A stretch of DNA of 64,000 bases from Candidatus Bathyarchaeota archaeon (lineage in GTDB: Archaea > Thermoproteota > Bathyarchaeia > Bathyarchaeales > Bathycorpusculaceae): assembly GCA_963707955.1 (NCBI GenBank), contig OY970176.1, positions 96,001 through 160,000 on the forward strand. Direction: 5' to 3'. Positions 16,963-21,580 of the stretch are shown here, one piece after another (within the stretch, counting starts at the first letter, position 1; the number at the start of each line of letters is the position of its first letter). Under the pieces are notes generated by a model. That model had not been told where the DNA came from. It worked only from the letters and a program-made list of their open reading frames with translations, and ran no database searches. The position numbers were made by a program, and so were the translations under genes.

Positions 16963-17330
16963 AGCGAACTTCATTCTCCATTTCTTTTTCAATTCTGAAT
17001 TCTGTTCCTCATCAGCTTTTTCCAAGTTCTTATGAAAAAATGTCGCCATATCCCAACTGGAAATCATTTTTCATCTCACCCTCTATGATTCTCTGTAACG
17101 AGAAATCATCCGAATCCGTTCGCGCGCACGTGAAACTGGCTTCGTTGAGAATGAGGGGTTTGACATTGCGGAAGTTTGAGAGGATTTATCGTAAGCTTCT
17201 CCTGCTTAGCCTACGTGGAGTTTCGTTGGCGCGTCAGAAAGGCGTTGCCTCAGAGTGCGCGGTTTCGTTTGGTTTGGTTGATAAGACCTTGCGAAAGCTT
17301 AAGCTCCCTCGGCACTCGCTTTGCCAACGA

Positions 17331-17345
17331 ATTAAGGTTATATAC
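17331..17345 (+). promoter_or_regulatory. BRE/TATA promoter of tRNA-Tyr
   Basis: ATTAAGG-TTATATAC about 33-45 bp upstream of the mature 5' end. Confidence 0.6.
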
Positions 17346-17377
17346 TATTTCGTTTTTTGTTATTCTCGGTCGGGCAC

Positions 17378-17593
17378 CGGGCGGTAGCTCAGCCTGGCAG
17401 AGCTTCCGAGTCAGCATAGCGCCAAACACTGGCTGACGGAGACGCTGTAGAAGCCTACCAAAGGTGGGCATCACCCAGCCTACCAGGCTAACAGGCAGAA
17501 ACCGGATCGCCGCAGGAGAGTTGGAGTATTACCTTCAGCTCGGCGATTTCAAAATGAGGGTTTAGCTTCATGAAAGTCCTGCCCGCCCGACCA
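17378..17593 (+). tRNA. tRNA-Tyr(GTA) with four introns: 30/31 (17409-17443), 37/38 (17451-17500), 53/54 (17517-17547), 59/60 (17554-17576); CCA encoded
   Basis: Spliced product CGGGCGG TA GCTC AGCCTGGCA GAGC T TCCGG CTGTAGA CCGGA TCGCC GCAGG TTCAAAT CCTGC CCGCCCG A CCA is a perfect cloverleaf with C1-G72 and A73; BHB-type motifs at the junctions. Confidence 0.92.
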
Positions 17594-17594
17594 A

Positions 17595-17925
17595 CACAAT
17601 CCATTAGACGTAGTAGGCGACGCAGACGCGGAACGTTATCGACTTGCATTAAACGCTGTTTCCTCGGATCCAAACGTTGGAATAATTCTGGTGATCGTAC
17701 TTCTTCAAACATCCTACATTGAGTCGGATGTGGTTGACGCAATAACTGAATCGCAAGTAACCTACGGCAAAGCCGTGATCGTATGCACTATAGGAGGAGA
17801 CTTCGCACAAACATTGGTCAAAATGTCAGAGGAAGACCGCATACCATCATACAAAAACCCCGGAGAGGGCAGTCAACGCGTTAAACGCGCTTATCAAATA
17901 CGGCAAAGCGCTGGAAGACAAATAA
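17595..17925 (+). pseudogene. 3' fragment of ADP-forming acyl-CoA synthetase alpha subunit, with frameshift at A-run 17853-17857
   Basis: HNPLDVVGDADAERY...DPNV...IPSYK then shifted TPERAVNAL...; no start or N-terminal domains. Confidence 0.8.
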
Positions 17926-17964
17926 AAGAGAAAGATCGGGGCACACTGAAATTAACCCCACAAC

Positions 17965-19176
17965 TCATGTTATTTGCCTGTAATCGAAGTCGTCTTCCAG
18001 AAGATGATTCTTGTACTTTGTGACGTCGGTCTCTTGTTGCATTAATCTAGTCAAGGTCGACGTGCCTTTTCTGTCTCCTAGAAGGATTGCTCCTACGATT
18101 TTGCCTTGGTCCAGAACGATCTTCTTGTAGACGCCTCTTTGCTTGTCGATTCTTTTGATCTCCTCGTATTGGGGTCCTTCGGGGCTCACCAGTCCCATTG
18201 AAGTTAGACTTATTCCCGCGATTTTTAACGTCGTGGACTGTATTGTGCCGTTGTAAACATGTTTTTCGCCTTCAAGCATGTTTGCAGCTGCTACTCTTGC
18301 TTGCTCAATAGCCGGAGGGATTATGCCGTAAACCTTTCTATGAAACTCCAGTACGTCTCTAGCAGCATAGACTTCATCAGCGCTGGTTCGCAGGTAATCA
18401 TCGACGACTACTCCCTTGTTTACTTTGATCCCCGCGTCTGCAGCGAGTCGGATGTCAGATCTCACGCCTGCTGATATCAAAATGAGCTCGCCTGAAACTT
18501 CCTTTTCATTATCAAGTGCTACTCCAGCAACTGCCTCTTTGCCAAGGATTTCGGTTGTTTTTACGCCAAGCTGCATGCCTATACCAAGTTTTCTAAGGTC
18601 ATTCTCCAGAATCGATGAGCCGTCTTGATCTAACTGCCTCGGTAGCAACATGGGGAAAATTTCTACAACTTCGACTTTTTGGCCCAGCTTCATTAAGCAA
18701 TCGGCAAATTCTATGCCTAGAAGTCCACCTCCGATGACTATTGCTTCCCTTGTCTTCGTTGCATATTGCTTTATAGCGATGGCATCTTCAACGGTGCGAA
18801 GAGTAAAAATTCCCTTCTTCTCTATGCCCGCTATAGGTGGAACGAATGCGTGGGCTCCGTTTGCCAAGAGAAGTCTGTCGTAGTTTGCTTTTAGGCCACC
18901 TTCAAGCGTGATTTCTTTATTCGCTGGGTCTATCCGCATGATTTTCTTGCCTAGTTGAACCTTAATGCCGAGCTTCTCATACCACTTCGGCGCATAGGAG
19001 TAGATCTCTTGCGGTTCTTTTTCTCCCGAAAGAACCTCGTATAGTCTCGGTCGAGGATAGTACAGATGATTTTCATCTGTGTAGACTGTAACTTCGTGTT
19101 CAGGAGCAGCATTTTGCCTTATGGCCCTTGCTGCTGTGACGCCTGCCACTCCGCAACCGATGATCGCGATACGCAT
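17965..19176 (-). CDS. FAD/NAD(P)-dependent oxidoreductase (rubredoxin reductase/NirB N-terminal-like)
   Basis: IIGCGVAG, LLLANG, IGGGLLGIE, TSADEVYA, YKKIVL. Confidence 0.9.
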   Translation of the reverse strand: MRIAIIGCGVAGVTAARAIRQNAAPEHEVTVYTDENHLYYPRPRLYEVLSGEKEPQEIYSYAPKWYEKLGIKVQLGKKIMRIDPANKEITLEGGLKANYDRLLLANGAHAFVPPIAGIEKKGIFTLRTVEDAIAIKQYATKTREAIVIGGGLLGIEFADCLMKLGQKVEVVEIFPMLLPRQLDQDGSSILENDLRKLGIGMQLGVKTTEILGKEAVAGVALDNEKEVSGELILISAGVRSDIRLAADAGIKVNKGVVVDDYLRTSADEVYAARDVLEFHRKVYGIIPPAIEQARVAAANMLEGEKHVYNGTIQSTTLKIAGISLTSMGLVSPEGPQYEEIKRIDKQRGVYKKIVLDQGKIVGAILLGDRKGTSTLTRLMQQETDVTKYKNHLLEDDFDYRQIT

Positions 19177-19239
19177 AGGAATGCTCACCGAATCCTTGAT
19201 TGAGATTCCGTTAAGCAACCTCTTCTTAAATGTGGTTCG

Positions 19240-20649
19240 TCATTTTTTGGTGAGCTCTGAAAGCTCTCTGATGTCATGTATCTCGATCAGGTTGCTAGAA
19301 TGCTGTTTGGACGTTCTGAAGGCTGCGGTGAAAAGAATTGTGTCTCGGTCGCGGATGATGCCCATTGAATGAAGCTTGTTTGCGGTCGCAAGAATGTGGT
19401 CTTTCTCTTTAACGTAGTTGATGTGCACAGGATAGACGCCGAAAGACAGTTCAAGTTGTCTCTTCACGCGGTTATCAGGTGTAACGGCGATTATTGGTTG
19501 TATGAGCTTGAATCTTGAGATCATTCGAGCTGTGTAGCCTGATCGGGTTAGTGTGACAACTTTGTCTATGGGCATTTCTTGGCATATCCTTTGAACGGCT
19601 TTGCTTATCGTGTCTGAGGTGTTGATGAACCCTTCGTCTTCGACGTGGCTTTCGATTGCCTTTTCAGTTTCGTTCGCAATTCTTGACATCATAGAGACAG
19701 ATTCTACAGGGTACTGCCCTACTGCTGTCTCTCCTGAAAGCATGGTTACTTCTGTTCCATCCAATATTGCGTTTGCGACGTCGCTGACTTCGGCTCTTGT
19801 TGGACTCGGCTGGTGTGTCATCGATTCAAGCATTTCTGTTGCAGTCACAACGGTCTTTCCTCTCTGATTGCATTTTCTTATTATTGATTTCTGGAGCTGC
19901 GGGACTTTTTCTGGTTCTATTTCAACGCCCAGGTCGCCTCTTGCCACCATGATTCCGTCTGCAGCGTCGAGGATCTGATTGAAGTTTTCGACACCTTCCG
20001 AATTTTCTATCTTGGCGATGACTGCGCCTTTGAACCCGTCGGCCTCTTTCTTCAGGGTGTTCACGTCCTGAGCATTTCTTGTGAATGAAAGGGCTATAAA
20101 CTCAACATCACTCTCCTTTGCGAGATCTATTATTTTCAGGTCTTTGCTGGAGAGGGTTGGAACTGTCAGTTTCTTGTTCGGGATGTTGACTCCTTTTCCG
20201 TCGTCTATTTCACCGCTCGTTGTCGCAAGCAGTTTCAGGGTATCTTTCCGTTTTTCTTTGACTGTGGTTCTCAGCCTGCCGTTGTCGATAAGAACAGTGT
20301 CTCCGACATGCATTTCTTCATAGATGTTGTTATTGAAGCCTATTTTTTCGTTTCTGCCTACGTCAAGAGTGTCGCCTTTGTTGACAGTTTTTCTGCCCAT
20401 TGCTTTGAGCCTTATTTCAGGGCCCTTCACGTCGATGATTATTGGAATGTCTGCTACTTCTCGAAGACTGCTAATCATGATCCTGTACTGATCAAGCGTC
20501 CCATAAGCAGTGTTTATTCTGGCACCGTTCATACCTGAACGGTACATTTTTCTAAGCGTGTTTCTGGAAATGCTAGCTGGACCGATCGTGCAGATGATCT
20601 TGGTTTTCTTCACCCACTCATACTCCAATGCCATTTCAAAAGGCGCCAC
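19240..20649 (-). CDS. pyk: Pyruvate kinase
   Basis: TKIICTIGP, DVKGPEIR, IAKIEN, MVARGDLGVE, PTRAEVSDVANA, MLSGETA. Confidence 0.96.
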   Translation of the reverse strand: MAPFEMALEYEWVKKTKIICTIGPASISRNTLRKMYRSGMNGARINTAYGTLDQYRIMISSLREVADIPIIIDVKGPEIRLKAMGRKTVNKGDTLDVGRNEKIGFNNNIYEEMHVGDTVLIDNGRLRTTVKEKRKDTLKLLATTSGEIDDGKGVNIPNKKLTVPTLSSKDLKIIDLAKESDVEFIALSFTRNAQDVNTLKKEADGFKGAVIAKIENSEGVENFNQILDAADGIMVARGDLGVEIEPEKVPQLQKSIIRKCNQRGKTVVTATEMLESMTHQPSPTRAEVSDVANAILDGTEVTMLSGETAVGQYPVESVSMMSRIANETEKAIESHVEDEGFINTSDTISKAVQRICQEMPIDKVVTLTRSGYTARMISRFKLIQPIIAVTPDNRVKRQLELSFGVYPVHINYVKEKDHILATANKLHSMGIIRDRDTILFTAAFRTSKQHSSNLIEIHDIRELSELTKK

Positions 20650-20719
20650 TTGGAGTTCACAGTGAAGAAAAGTGATAAGTCCTATTAGAAGATTACACTA
20701 GTGTATATGGAGGATTTTC

Positions 20720-21409
20720 ATGATCTGCAATCTGTTTGTCTTTAGGCATGCTGAAACAACTGATAACAGCCGTGGAATATTCTCAGGTTGGCGAGACTCA
20801 GAACTTACCTTGAAAGGACTCTCGCAAGCACAGGAGATTGCAGAGCAACTAAGGCGAGAGAAAATTGACTATGCGTTCACCTCACATCTTAAGAGAGCTC
20901 GAAAAACTCTTGAAATAGTCCTTGAAAAGCATCCTGCTATCCCTGTTTTTACGGATGACGGGCTCATCGAACGTTGCTACGGCTTGCTTCAGGGCAAAAG
21001 CAAGAGAAGGGTTGCTGAGGAAAGGCCTGAATGGTTCGCTCAAATTCACAGGGGCTATGATTTTCCGCCGCCAGAGGGAGAAAGTTTAAAGATGGTTGAA
21101 AATCGAACGTTGCCCTTCTTGTTGCAGCTTCAAGAATGGCTCCGACAGAACCCGGCTAACGTGGCAATCTCGTGCCATGGTAACTCTCTGCGCCCAATTC
21201 GTCGAGTCTTCGAGCATCTGAGCTTAAAACAGATGCTTCAGATTGAGAATCCCCAAGATCGTGCAATGTCTTATGCCCTTCATGTTCACAGTGTTAATAT
21301 TGGAGGCCCTAGAAGAAACACCGTTAAAGCGGACTGGCAAGGCATACTGGTTCCTCAGCAAGTAAGATTGGCAACAGATCAGCGAAACCCATTGAAGAGA
21401 TATTACTAG
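20720..21409 (+). CDS. Histidine phosphatase family, cofactor-dependent phosphoglycerate mutase-like
   Basis: RHAE, FSGWRD, ERCYGLLQG, PPPEGESL, HGNSLR; divergent from pyk. Confidence 0.88.
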   Translation: MICNLFVFRHAETTDNSRGIFSGWRDSELTLKGLSQAQEIAEQLRREKIDYAFTSHLKRARKTLEIVLEKHPAIPVFTDDGLIERCYGLLQGKSKRRVAEERPEWFAQIHRGYDFPPPEGESLKMVENRTLPFLLQLQEWLRQNPANVAISCHGNSLRPIRRVFEHLSLKQMLQIENPQDRAMSYALHVHSVNIGGPRRNTVKADWQGILVPQQVRLATDQRNPLKRYY

Positions 21410-21580
21410 TTCCCAATAATGCTGCGCCGGAAGATCACTAGTGCACCTTGGCGCTTGCAATACAAAATTAGCGCGCTATCTTGTCTCTTCATTATGAAGA
21501 ATGTTGGTGAGATGGTTTGTCGGATAACTTCGGAAAGTTTAATTTGCTTGAGAAGATTAACAAGTTTAACGTGTTGAGAA

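What the first reader, a model, noticed from the sequence alone, without database searches (positions are those of the whole stretch)
17378..17593. tRNA-Tyr interrupted by four introns
Removing 35, 50, 31 and 23 nt at 30/31, 37/38, 53/54 and 59/60 yields a perfect 77-nt tRNA-Tyr. Central helices: CTTC/GGAG, CTGT/GCAG, CGCA/GGCG (one mismatch), TTCA/TGAA, each with 3-nt bulges cut after the second base. Intron sequence (139 nt) exceeds exon sequence. Outer helices of the 37/38 and 59/60 motifs form only after the 30/31 and 53/54 introns are removed, implying ordered splicing. The highest count I recall for archaeal tRNAs is three (Thermoproteales); standard scanners would probably miss this gene.
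Basis: partly seen in the sequence, partly recalled or inferred. Interest (0 to 1): 0.85.

Follow-up and report, generated by a model that had tools for sequence, protein, structure and literature searches.

The report
Four-intron tyrosine tRNA gene, Bathyarchaeia
This is the genome's only tyrosine tRNA gene, cut into five pieces by four small protein-spliced introns, a layout shared by at least 30 related uncultured archaea and one intron more than reviews give as the archaeal maximum.

Summary
Confirmed. Window 17378-17593 (+) is a tRNA-Tyr(GTA) gene with four bulge-helix-bulge (BHB) introns of 35, 50, 31 and 23 nt at 30/31, 37/38, 53/54 and 59/60. Splicing in silico gives a 77-nt cloverleaf that ARAGORN calls tRNA-Tyr. 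ARAGORN and Rfam both miss the unspliced gene. No other Tyr tRNA was found in the 2.35-Mb genome.

Of 54 distinct homologous genes from related Bathyarchaeia, 30 carry all four introns, 8 carry three and 16 carry two. All splice to 77 nt. Exons are 97% identical on average, while the intron helices change by compensatory substitutions (96.5% of cells paired, against 32-44% when partners are slid).

The genome encodes a catalytic plus a structural EndA subunit, and RtcB. No RNA data exist, so splicing and its order are inferred.

Reviews state a maximum of three introns. Earlier notes of this scan report four-intron tRNA-Trp and tRNA-Lys genes in Bathyarchaeia, and a 2024 Asgard supplementary table that I could not read.

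Two extras:
- The canonical intron holds a conserved, covarying element complementary to the D loop.
- In two relatives the introns 53/54 and 59/60 lie beside a LAGLIDADG homing-endonuclease gene and an orphan intron-less copy of the tRNA's 3' end. This suggests how these introns spread.

The parts
17338..17344 (+). TATA-like box (TTATATA), about 34-40 nt upstream of the mature 5' end; likely promoter
   Evidence: Direct reading. An A/T box, usually preceded by CGAAA, stands at a similar distance upstream of the homologous genes in the other loci printed. Promoter function is inferred.
17378..17408 (+). Exon 1: tRNA positions 1-30 (acceptor 5' strand, D arm, 5' part of the anticodon stem)
   Evidence: Nearly invariant in 54 distinct homologues.
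17409..17443 (+). Intron 1 (35 nt) at 30/31; strict hBHBh' motif
   Evidence: Central helix paired at all 4 positions in 51 of 51 genes. A 6-bp inner helix carries compensatory changes (for example GC 32 / AU 19). A 2-bp outer helix is invariant.
17444..17450 (+). Exon 2: positions 31-37, with anticodon GTA at 17447-17449
   Evidence: GCTGTAG is invariant in 54 of 54 genes.
17451..17500 (+). Intron 2 (50 nt) at the canonical 37/38 site; central helix plus anticodon stem, with no adjacent inner helix (relaxed hBH form)
   Evidence: Central helix paired in 54 of 54 genes. The outer helix is the anticodon stem and is contiguous only after intron 1 is removed. Inner positions 1-3 are paired in only 3-4 of 54.
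17480..17489 (+). Element inside intron 2 complementary to the D loop and 3' D stem (window 17391-17400)
   Evidence: Longest complementary run averages 8.74 nt, against 5.87 nt in shuffled introns. The helix is 98% paired in 54 genes. Two pairs change on both sides: UA 37 / CG 14 / UG 3, and UA 26 / CG 16 / UG 5 / other 7. In this window it is 7 bp, then one C x A mismatch, then 2 bp.
17501..17516 (+). Exon 3: positions 38-53 (3' anticodon stem, variable loop, 5' T stem)
17517..17547 (+). Intron 3 (31 nt) at 53/54; HBh' motif with a 3-bp central helix plus an A51 x G mismatch
   Evidence: H1-H3 are paired in 33 of 33 genes. H4 is A x G in 22 and A-U in 11 of 33. The inner helix is 5-6 bp with compensatory changes.
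17548..17553 (+). Exon 4: positions 54-59 (TTCAAA of the T loop), only 6 nt
   Evidence: It reads TTCAAA or TCCAAA in all 54 genes.
17554..17576 (+). Intron 4 (23 nt) at 59/60; central helix TTCA/TGAA and a 5-bp inner helix; the outer helix is the T stem
   Evidence: Each inner-helix pair is split about evenly between AU and GC types (for example AU 20 / GC 18). The T-stem outer helix is paired in 35-38 of 38 genes only after intron 3 is removed.
17577..17593 (+). Exon 5: positions 60-76 (T60, 3' T stem, 3' acceptor strand, A73, encoded CCA)
17517..21471 (.). Stretch with no counterpart in the closest congener, starting exactly at intron 3
   Evidence: G007 (L002) is collinear with this genome up to exon 3: 95% identity in the upstream flank and 91% in the gene. 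Homology resumes at genome position 117472, which is window 21472. The stretch holds a pyridine-nucleotide oxidoreductase, a pyruvate kinase and a histidine phosphatase gene.

Best explanation
Window 17378-17593 is the single, functional tRNA-Tyr(GUA) gene of a Bathyarchaeia archaeon. It is probably transcribed from a TATA-type promoter about 35 nt upstream as a precursor of at least 216 nt. Four short introns interrupt it at 30/31, 37/38, 53/54 and 59/60.

[quoted passage not shown] The genome's two-subunit (catalytic alpha plus non-catalytic beta) splicing endonuclease cuts in the two 3-nt bulges, and RtcB joins the exons. The 77-nt product has C1-G72, A73, G37 and a 5-nt variable loop.

The four motifs cannot all exist at once:
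- The outer helix of motif 1 (A23-G24 with C32-U33) and the central helix of motif 2 (C32-U35) share two nucleotides.
- The central helix of motif 3 uses C48-A51, of which G49-A51 are T-stem nucleotides that motif 4 needs for its outer helix.

So the precursor must refold between cuts. Intron 1 most likely goes before intron 2. Introns 3 and 4 could go in either order.

Shown: gene structure, conservation, covariation, presence of the enzymes. Inferred: transcription, actual splicing, and its order.
For: The spliced product is a perfect tRNA-Tyr by ARAGORN, while the unspliced gene gives 0 genes.

No other Tyr tRNA was found:
- 0 of 43 ARAGORN calls on the genome are Tyr.
- 0 of 40 Rfam tRNA matches lie at another Tyr-like locus.
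- There are no second copies of exons 1, 3 or 5.

Homologues: 80 loci were parsed into 54 distinct genes. Of these, 30 have four introns, 5 lack only 53/54, 3 lack only 30/31, and 16 have two. All give 77 nt. These loci were fetched partly with patterns that require introns, so the shares are not prevalence.

Exons against introns: 13 of 77 exon positions vary, and mean pairwise exon identity is 0.968.

Structure counts on alignment A1:
- 96.5% of 2120 cells are paired, against 32-44% when partners are slid.
- 16 of 47 pairs change on both sides.
- 0 of 500 shuffles reach the observed values.

Enzymes:
- A 185-aa EndA paralogue best matches crenarchaeal catalytic subunits (2cv8, 3p1z_B, 3ajv_B, 2zyz_B; E 2e-39 to 3e-29) and keeps the His.
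- A 189-aa paralogue best matches 1a79, but has Thr at the position aligned to the His of 1a79's KEH stretch; that this His is the catalytic one is recalled.
- RtcB is present, E 2.4e-178.

The DNA is reproduced in contigs of three runs. Conserved promoter-like boxes stand upstream.
Against: There is no RNA evidence of any kind.

In this genome the central helix of motif 3 has an A x G mismatch. RNAfold prefers a competing 8-bp helix (GGAUCGCC with GGCGAUUU) that buries the 3' splice site of intron 3. The BHB-constrained folds of the full precursor lie 2-8 kcal/mol above the minimum-free-energy fold.

Motif 2 has no adjacent inner helix.

Several isoacceptors of this genome (Met, Glu-CUC and others) were not located. 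The tRNA inventory is therefore incomplete, and a very divergent second Tyr gene cannot be strictly excluded.
Confidence: 0.9

Rival explanations
1. The gene is a decaying or non-functional copy whose inserts are not removed. Tyrosine decoding would then rely on another, undetected tRNA.
For: No RNA data. The tRNA inventory is incomplete. Motif 3 is imperfect in this genome.
Against: Exons are almost invariant in 54 genes while introns diverge, and stem changes are compensatory (for example acceptor pair 5-68 CG 53 / AU 1). No other Tyr-like exon exists in the genome. A conserved promoter-like box stands upstream.
Confidence: 0.03
2. The boundaries are different. For example, 17517-17576 would be a single 60-nt insert, or the cuts would lie one base away, giving another mature sequence.
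For: Some junctions allow alternative pairings. RNAfold shifts helix 1 by one base and prefers another helix at intron 3.
Against: Only the stated boundaries give a 7-nt T loop, 5-bp T and anticodon stems, and G37/A38. TTCAAA between introns 3 and 4 is conserved in all 33 genes that carry intron 3. Three-intron relatives have either intron without the other (5 genes lack only 53/54), so the two are separate units.
Confidence: 0.03
3. This is an account of origin, not a rival to function. Introns 53/54 and 59/60 are not old in this lineage. They came in by recombination with a foreign tRNA-Tyr allele. That allele would ultimately trace to a cassette in which a free-standing LAGLIDADG homing-endonuclease gene travels with an intron-bearing tRNA-Tyr copy (in one relative a copy lacking only its first 10 nt), and the two introns split the enzyme's presumed T-arm target.
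For: Distribution in and beyond the genus:
- 7 congeners lack both introns (L002-L008).
- 5 of the 6 sampled congeners match the uninterrupted T-arm pattern.
- Collinearity with G007 ends exactly at intron 3.
- L018 (2 introns) and L036 (4 introns), of one genus, share both flanks at 94-96% identity but differ in intron 2 and the T stem.
- An identical 23-nt intron 4 occurs in families f7, f1 and f11.

Cassettes in relatives:
- In G190 a tRNA-Tyr 3' part with introns 3 and 4 (the contig ends inside intron 2) is followed by an antisense 244-aa LAGLIDADG ORF (PF14528, E 1.2e-8) and, 1.75 kb on, by an orphan intron-less T arm to CCA.
- G406 has the same order with a frameshifted ORF. It also has a 46-aa ORF fragment right behind its functional four-intron gene.
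- Homologous ORFs sit between tRNA-Pro and an orphan tRNA-Pro 3' end in G061 and G224.
Against: This genome has no such ORF (tblastn) and no orphan tRNA-Tyr end.

Only 2 genomes show the ORF beside tRNA-Tyr. No homologue was detected in any of the fetched tRNA-Tyr loci other than those of G190 and G406; downstream flanks of up to 1.5 kb were held for only part of these loci, the genome-contig loci holding 300 nt.

In family f11 introns 3 and 4 are diverse and look vertically inherited.

The cleavage site of the enzyme is unknown. MAG binning errors could mimic sharing across families.
Confidence: 0.35

Closest known systems
Multiple-intron tRNA genes of Thermoproteales (Sugahara et al. 2008, cited in the reviews PMC4033280 and PMC8450103; passages read)
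   Same: Same kind of small BHB or relaxed-BHB introns at canonical and non-canonical sites. They are cut by a heterotetrameric endonuclease of broad specificity. Nearby introns must be removed one after another. Standard scanners miss such genes.
   Different: Those papers give a maximum of three introns per gene; here there are four, leaving a 6-nt and a 7-nt exon. The host is a mesophilic sediment Bathyarchaeia, not a hyperthermophile. No intron copies occur elsewhere in this genome, so there is no sign of the intragenomic intron transposition proposed for Thermoproteales.
Cyanidioschyzon merolae nuclear tRNA-Ile(UAU) with introns in the D stem, at 37/38 and in the T loop (PMC3728597; passages read)
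   Same: Introns flank and include the canonical one. RT-PCR there showed that the outer introns are removed before the 37/38 intron, the order inferred here for introns 1 and 2.
   Different: That is a eukaryotic nucleus with three introns. Its processing was shown experimentally; here it is only inferred.
Intron-rich tRNA genes of Atabeyarchaeia and Freyarchaeia (PMC11291895; passages read, Supplementary Data 4 not visible)
   Same: Uncultured soil and sediment archaea in which most tRNA genes carry introns, often several, at non-canonical sites.
   Different: A different phylum (Asgard). The main text gives no per-gene maximum. Earlier notes of this scan say the supplementary table lists four-intron genes. 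I could not check this, because the held copy of the zip is cut before that table.
Caldiarchaeum subterraneum tRNA-Thr(GGU) locus heterogeneity (Sugahara et al. 2012, PMC3293823; abstract read)
   Same: An intron-richer tRNA allele lies next to a 1.8-kb mobile insert, with an orphan fragment of the older allele. The authors propose intron gain through a mobile element.
   Different: There the insert encodes a recombinase and leaves a 5' fragment. Here, in relatives G190 and G406, it encodes a LAGLIDADG endonuclease and leaves a 3' fragment. The window's own genome has neither.
Collaborative homing of a free-standing endonuclease and an intron that splits its target (cyanophage psbA); recalled, no call
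   Same: It works like the proposed origin: the nuclease gene sits beside the gene, and the intron, not the nuclease gene, interrupts the target site.
   Different: That case is a group I intron in a phage protein gene. Here it would be protein-spliced BHB introns in an archaeal tRNA gene. Cleavage specificity is untested.
Haloferax volcanii tRNA-Trp intron, a box C/D guide that pairs with its own exons; recalled, no call
   Same: A canonical-site intron with a conserved segment that base-pairs with the exon of the same precursor.
   Different: No C/D boxes are visible here and there is no Rfam match. The target here is the D loop, and the function is unknown.

Membership tests
Archaeal protein-spliced (BHB) tRNA introns | Two 3-nt bulges on opposite strands, separated by a 4-bp helix, with the cuts at symmetric positions in the bulges | tested here: met
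   All four motifs have this geometry, with the cut after the second bulge base (direct reading). The central helix of motif 3 has 3 bp plus an A x G mismatch in this genome.
Archaeal protein-spliced (BHB) tRNA introns | At least one flanking helix (h or h') beside the central helix | tested here: met
   Intron 1 has a 2-bp outer and a 6-bp inner helix. Intron 3 has an inner helix of 9 bp here. Intron 4 has a 5-bp inner helix. Intron 2 has the anticodon stem as outer helix, of which only 1 bp is contiguous before intron 1 is removed.
Archaeal protein-spliced (BHB) tRNA introns | Removal restores a canonical cloverleaf | tested here: met
   ARAGORN calls the joined exons tRNA-Tyr, 77 nt. All 54 distinct homologues also give 77 nt.
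Archaeal protein-spliced (BHB) tRNA introns | Splicing endonuclease of a type that accepts relaxed or non-canonical motifs, plus a 3'-phosphate ligase, encoded in the genome | tested here: met
   Two EndA paralogues are present, one resembling crenarchaeal catalytic subunits and one lacking the His at the site recalled as catalytic. RtcB is present. That such two-subunit enzymes have broad specificity comes from PMC4033280 (passage read).
Archaeal protein-spliced (BHB) tRNA introns | Excision and exon ligation observed in RNA | not testable with these tools
   Not testable with the runs on offer; see Tried and rejected.
Archaeal tRNA-Tyr | Anticodon GUA; C1-G72 first pair and A73 (identity elements, recalled); short variable loop | tested here: met
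   The ARAGORN drawing shows the gta anticodon, the c-g first pair, a discriminator A and a 5-nt variable loop.
Free-standing LAGLIDADG endonuclease cassette with replacement of a tRNA gene end | Endonuclease ORF beside the tRNA gene, plus an orphan duplicate of the tRNA end | tested here: not met
   The window's genome has no homologue by tblastn and no orphan copy. The feature is met in relatives G190 and G406 (tRNA-Tyr) and in G061 and G224 (tRNA-Pro).

The most novel reading that the evidence does not exclude
The two T-arm introns (53/54 and 59/60) are cargo and shield of a selfish element. A free-standing LAGLIDADG homing endonuclease would cut intron-less tRNA-Tyr DNA in the T arm. Repair would copy in an allele whose T arm is split by two BHB introns, and is therefore immune, together with the nuclease gene. 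The nuclease gene later decays or is lost by recombination between the duplicated 3' exons, leaving 'unexplained' non-canonical introns such as those in this window. This would be an archaeal, protein-spliced-intron version of collaborative homing. It would also be a concrete answer to how non-canonical tRNA introns are gained and spread between lineages.
Probability: 0.3. Interest if true: 0.8.

Novelty: new member of a known kind. Interest (0 to 1): 0.5.

Why it matters
Reviews and the tRNAscan-SE 2.0 paper put the ceiling for archaeal tRNA genes at three introns. Here a four-intron gene is the normal, conserved form of an essential tRNA in many Bathyarchaeia, an abundant uncultured sediment group.

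Two practical consequences follow. Genome annotations of these organisms probably lack tRNA-Tyr, which would understate tRNA complements. And intron-aware scanners need to iterate at least four times and accept 6-nt exons.

The gene is also a compact natural test bed for how a precursor refolds between successive endonuclease cuts, because the motifs are mutually exclusive and there is a covarying intron-to-D-loop helix.

Intron presence and absence between close relatives, and the endonuclease cassettes beside the gene in two relatives, make the old question of how non-canonical tRNA introns arise directly testable.

Tried and rejected
RNA evidence. One search for sequencing runs listed no RNA holder. 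Only DNA contigs could be laid.

Integrase-type insertion in this genome. There is no second copy of the tRNA-Tyr 3' end (up to 3 mismatches genome-wide; up to 7 errors within 4.6 kb downstream). The genes in the extra 3.9 kb are ordinary metabolic genes.

Intragenomic intron transposition. Short-word blastn of each intron against the genome gave only chance matches of 13-18 nt.

A known RNA hidden in the introns. Rfam at E up to 10 gave one noise match (YrlA, 13 bits against a gathering score of 69), which merely aligns the D arm.

Splicing order from thermodynamics. The result was inconclusive. Constrained folds reached -79.8 to -86.1 kcal/mol, against -87.9 for the minimum-free-energy fold.

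Full tRNA inventory:
- A T-arm-anchored scan added 4 candidates.
- One D-arm-anchored scan was faulty and missed known genes.
- The corrected scan found only chance hits beyond known genes.
- Met, Glu-CUC and some other isoacceptors remain unlocated.
- ARAGORN mislabels intron-bearing genes; the gene it calls Thr at genome 2016540-2016645 is tRNA-Phe.

Literature. Searches for 'four introns' or 'up to four introns' with tRNA, archaea and BHB, and for Bathyarchaeia with tRNA introns, found no archaeal four-intron tRNA and nothing on Bathyarchaeia tRNA introns in the held library. Supplementary Data 4 of PMC11291895 could not be seen.

A first regular-expression parser of the homologues failed and was replaced by an anchor-based one. 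That parser needed one manual fix, for L039/L064.
Full report
OBSERVATION

The stretch 17378-17593 (+) reads as five exons and four inserts.
- Exons: 17378-17408, 17444-17450, 17501-17516, 17548-17553, 17577-17593.
- Inserts: 35, 50, 31 and 23 nt.

With a plain count the anticodon stem gets a C x C mismatch. With the standard count the joined exons give a 77-nt sequence that ARAGORN draws as a perfect tRNA-Tyr(gta). It has a C-G first pair, discriminator A, G37, a 5-nt variable loop, a TTCAAAT T loop and an encoded CCA.

The unspliced gene is invisible to every scanner tried:
- ARAGORN on the window found 0 genes.
- ARAGORN with intron mode on the locus found 0 genes.
- Rfam at gathering thresholds gave 0 matches in the window.
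- The Rfam tRNA model gave 40 matches on the whole genome, none at this locus.
- Rfam at E up to 10 on 17300-17680 gave one noise match.

tRNAscan-SE was not available.

IS IT THE ONLY TYR tRNA?

Fuzzy searches for exon 1, exon 3, exon 5 and an uninterrupted T arm found only this locus.

The inventory is not complete. Two anchored scans added four candidates and nothing Tyr-like, and a faulty scan is disregarded. Several isoacceptors remain unlocated. ARAGORN also misnames genes with non-canonical introns. For example, the gene at genome 2016540-2016645 is tRNA-Phe, not Thr.

Among all candidates found, the Tyr gene (216 nt) is the longest. ARAGORN also called three genes with introns of 386-782 nt (477-873 nt long); I judged these false and left them out. 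The next longest of the rest is 151 nt.

REALITY OF THE DNA

Contigs of four coded DNA runs of one freshwater-sediment study were laid on 17100-17900.
- The probable source run and a second run each span the whole stretch without a difference.
- A third run covers 17414-17900 without a difference.
- The third and fourth runs also hold a relative's gene. It has 19 differences and other flanks, and only TTCAAA stands between 17516 and 17577. This is a two-intron form living in the same samples.

RELATIVES

A BLAST of the locus against 40 related genomes gave a homologous gene in all 20 loci fetched. Sixteen have introns only at 30/31 and 37/38. One also has 59/60. Three have all four: this genome, G034 and G035. 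All seven congeners fetched have two.

In an even sample of 401 genomes of the order:
- 49 match a pattern that requires an intron at 59/60.
- 134 match an uninterrupted T arm.
- One genome matches both.
- 219 match neither exact pattern.

A scan of one genome per species (185,579 species) with a pattern requiring introns at both 53/54 and 59/60 gave 33 loci. Every one is titled Candidatus Bathyarchaeota or Bathyarchaeia, among them B26-1, B26-2 and the chromosome CP070759.1. So the organism is a Bathyarchaeia.

Of 83 loci holding the gene, 80 could be parsed; three are cut by contig ends. They collapse to 54 distinct genes:
- 30 have four introns.
- 5 lack only 53/54.
- 3 lack only 30/31.
- 16 have two.

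All splice to 77 nt. Many loci were fetched with intron-requiring patterns, so these shares are not prevalence.

STRUCTURE TESTS

Exons are nearly fixed: 13 of 77 positions vary, and mean pairwise identity is 0.968. Introns diverge.

Pairs were counted by distance from the splice sites.

Intron 1:
- The central helix is paired at 4 of 4 positions in 51 of 51 genes.
- A 6-bp inner helix varies by compensatory changes.
- A 2-bp outer helix (A23-G24 with C32-U33) is invariant.

Intron 2:
- The central helix is paired in 54 of 54 genes.
- There is no adjacent inner helix.
- The outer helix, the anticodon stem, is contiguous only after intron 1 is out. Outer pairs 2-4 are paired in 54 of 54 genes after removal, against 3-7 of 54 before.

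Intron 3:
- Three central pairs are paired in 33 of 33 genes.
- The fourth is A x G in 22 (this genome included) and A-U in 11.
- The inner helix covaries.

Intron 4:
- The central helix is mostly paired.
- The 5-bp inner helix is split about evenly between AU and GC at each pair.
- The outer helix is the T stem, formed only once intron 3 is gone.

The same structure was counted on a MAFFT alignment of the 54 genes. It gave 96.5% of 2120 cells paired, against 32-44% with partners slid by 1-3 columns. Sixteen of 47 pairs changed on both sides. No shuffle out of 500 reached the observed pairing, covariation score or double-change counts. The structure was derived from these sequences, which favours it in the slid control. 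The double changes do not depend on that.

MACHINERY

The genome has two EndA paralogues, each with the N and C domains.

The 185-aa protein best matches the chains 2cv8_A, 3p1z_B, 3ajv_B and 2zyz_B and keeps the His. By recall these chains are crenarchaeal catalytic subunits.

The 189-aa protein best matches 1a79, but has Thr at the position aligned to the His of 1a79's KEH stretch; that this His is the catalytic one is recalled. I therefore read it as the structural subunit of an (alpha-beta)2 enzyme. That type is reported to accept relaxed motifs at non-canonical sites (PMC4033280, passage read).

RtcB is present.

A TTATATA box stands at 17338-17344. Similar boxes, often preceded by CGAAA, stand at like distances upstream of the homologues.

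HOW IT MOST LIKELY WORKS

The precursor cannot show all four motifs at once. Motif 1's outer helix and motif 2's central helix share C32-U33. Motif 3's central helix (C48-A51) takes T-stem nucleotides that motif 4 uses as its outer helix. This is read directly from the sequence.

I infer that intron 1 is cut first. The anticodon stem then forms and presents intron 2. RNAfold supports this: after removal of introns 1 and 3, the minimum-free-energy fold is a cloverleaf with the intron-2 motif.

Introns 3 and 4 each have a central plus an inner helix in the full precursor, so either could go first.

Energies do not settle the order. Constrained folds of the precursor lie 2-8 kcal/mol above the minimum-free-energy fold. 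In this genome a competing 8-bp helix buries the 3' site of intron 3.

In Cyanidioschyzon merolae tRNA-Ile, which has a similar layout of three introns, RT-PCR showed the outer introns leaving before the canonical one (PMC3728597, passage read).

A CONSERVED ELEMENT IN INTRON 2

The 3' part of the canonical intron carries a run complementary to the D loop and the first base of the 3' D stem. Most genes pair CTACCAAGC with GCTTGGTAG. This genome has 7 bp, a C x A mismatch, then 2 bp, at 17480-17489 with 17391-17400.

The longest complementary run averages 8.74 nt, against 5.87 nt for shuffled introns. The helix is 98% paired. Two of its pairs switch between U-A and C-G.

It lies directly next to the strands used by motifs 1 and 2. 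I suspect it holds the D arm open while intron 1 is presented. This is a guess. No C/D boxes or Rfam family fit.

ORIGIN OF INTRONS 3 AND 4

In this genus they are found only here. Collinearity with the nearest congener, G007, runs through the upstream flank (95% identity) and the gene up to exon 3 (91%). It stops at intron 3 and resumes 3.9 kb downstream. The extra DNA holds ordinary metabolic genes.

In another genus, a two-intron gene (L018) and a four-intron gene (L036) share both flanks at 94-96% identity but differ in intron 2 and the T stem. This points to replacement of a patch inside the gene.

One 23-nt intron-4 sequence is identical in genomes of three families. This genome's differs from it at three positions.

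That same variant sits in cassettes in two relatives:
- In G190 a tRNA-Tyr 3' part with introns 3 and 4 (the contig ends inside intron 2) is followed by an antisense 244-aa LAGLIDADG ORF that overlaps the tRNA end. A DUF5655 ORF comes next. Then, 1.75 kb from the gene, stands an orphan intron-less copy of positions 49-76.
- In G406 a 46-aa fragment of the ORF follows the functional four-intron gene. A second locus holds a four-intron copy that lacks its first 10 nt, a frameshifted ORF and an orphan intron-less 3' end.

Homologues of the ORF occur in 14 of 401 genomes of the order. ARAGORN finds a tRNA gene in 8 of the 12 loci fetched. In two of them (G061, G224) the order is tRNA-Pro, antisense ORF, orphan tRNA-Pro 3' end, and the orphan's T stem has a different sequence.

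This fits a homing-endonuclease element that overwrites tRNA gene ends with an immune copy. For tRNA-Tyr the immunity could come from the two introns.

The evidence against this origin for the window's own gene is as follows. This genome has no such ORF and no orphan end. No homologue was detected in any of the fetched tRNA-Tyr loci other than those of G190 and G406; downstream flanks of up to 1.5 kb were held for only part of these loci. In family f11 the two introns are diverse and look old. The enzyme's target is unknown.

A related model, intron gain through a mobile insert, was proposed for Caldiarchaeum tRNA-Thr (PMC3293823, abstract read).

NOVELTY

Fujishima and Kanai 2014 (PMC4033280) and the tRNAscan-SE 2.0 paper (PMC8450103) state a maximum of three introns (passages read).

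My searches found no archaeal four-intron tRNA and nothing on Bathyarchaeia tRNA introns in the held library.

The Atabeyarchaeia paper reports 228 introns in three genomes, with over half of the genes multiply interrupted (PMC11291895, passages read). Its Supplementary Data 4 lies beyond the part of the zip that is held.

Earlier notes of this scan report four-intron tRNA-Trp and tRNA-Lys genes in other Bathyarchaeia-like genomes, and state that this table already lists four-intron tRNAs. I could not check that claim. Other notes describe LAGLIDADG cassettes that replace tRNA gene ends in other archaea and in CPR bacteria.

I therefore file the gene as a new member of a known kind. It is a real, conserved four-intron tRNA gene, above the ceiling given in reviews but probably not the first. 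It comes with two side observations worth following: the intron-to-D-loop helix, and the endonuclease-linked T-arm introns.

VERDICT

Confidence that this is a functional four-intron tRNA-Tyr gene is 0.9. Interest is 0.5.

Noticed in passing
window 17480-17489 with 17391-17400; alignment A1 columns 15-23 with 114-123: The canonical (37/38) intron carries a conserved 9-nt element complementary to the D loop and 3' D stem. Two pairs covary between U-A and C-G across 54 genes. It may be an intramolecular helper for folding or for ordered splicing.
   Followed up: partly
L088 (G190:C38:5500-9452); L089-L091 (G406:C9): A free-standing LAGLIDADG homing-endonuclease ORF lies antisense, directly behind a tRNA-Tyr gene or gene part that carries the T-arm introns (four-intron in G406; cut by the contig end in G190). 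An orphan intron-less copy of the tRNA's T arm to CCA lies further downstream. The ORF is intact in G190. In G406 it is frameshifted at one locus and reduced to a 46-aa fragment at the other.
   Followed up: partly
L095 (G061:C89) and L097 (G224:C51): Homologues of that endonuclease sit between an intact tRNA-Pro(CGG) and an orphan tRNA-Pro 3' end whose T stem has a different sequence. ARAGORN called a tRNA gene in 8 of the 12 loci fetched with endonuclease homologues.
   Followed up: partly
L018 (G030) against L036 (G058): Two species of one genus share both flanks of the tRNA-Tyr gene at 94-96% identity. One has two introns and the other four, and they differ in intron 2 and the T stem. This points to replacement of a patch inside the gene.
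   Followed up: partly
window 17594 to about 21471: About 3.9 kb directly behind the tRNA gene is absent from the closest congener, G007. It holds an oxidoreductase, a pyruvate kinase and a histidine phosphatase gene. tRNA-Tyr is also a rearrangement point in other congeners.
   Followed up: partly
The anticodon label is doubtful. The window run without intron mode and Rfam both missed it.
   Followed up: no
genome G000:C1:2016540-2016645 (+), outside the window: The gene that ARAGORN labels tRNA-Thr(cgt) is tRNA-Phe, with one intron near positions 28-31. Several other intron-bearing genes in the ARAGORN list are probably mislabelled in the same way.
   Followed up: partly
order sample, genus g33 (89 genomes) and g36 (23 genomes): Almost none of these genomes match either exact T-arm pattern (1 of 89 and 2 of 23 match the uninterrupted form; none match the 59/60-intron form). 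Their tRNA-Tyr genes must differ in sequence or layout and were not examined.
   Followed up: no
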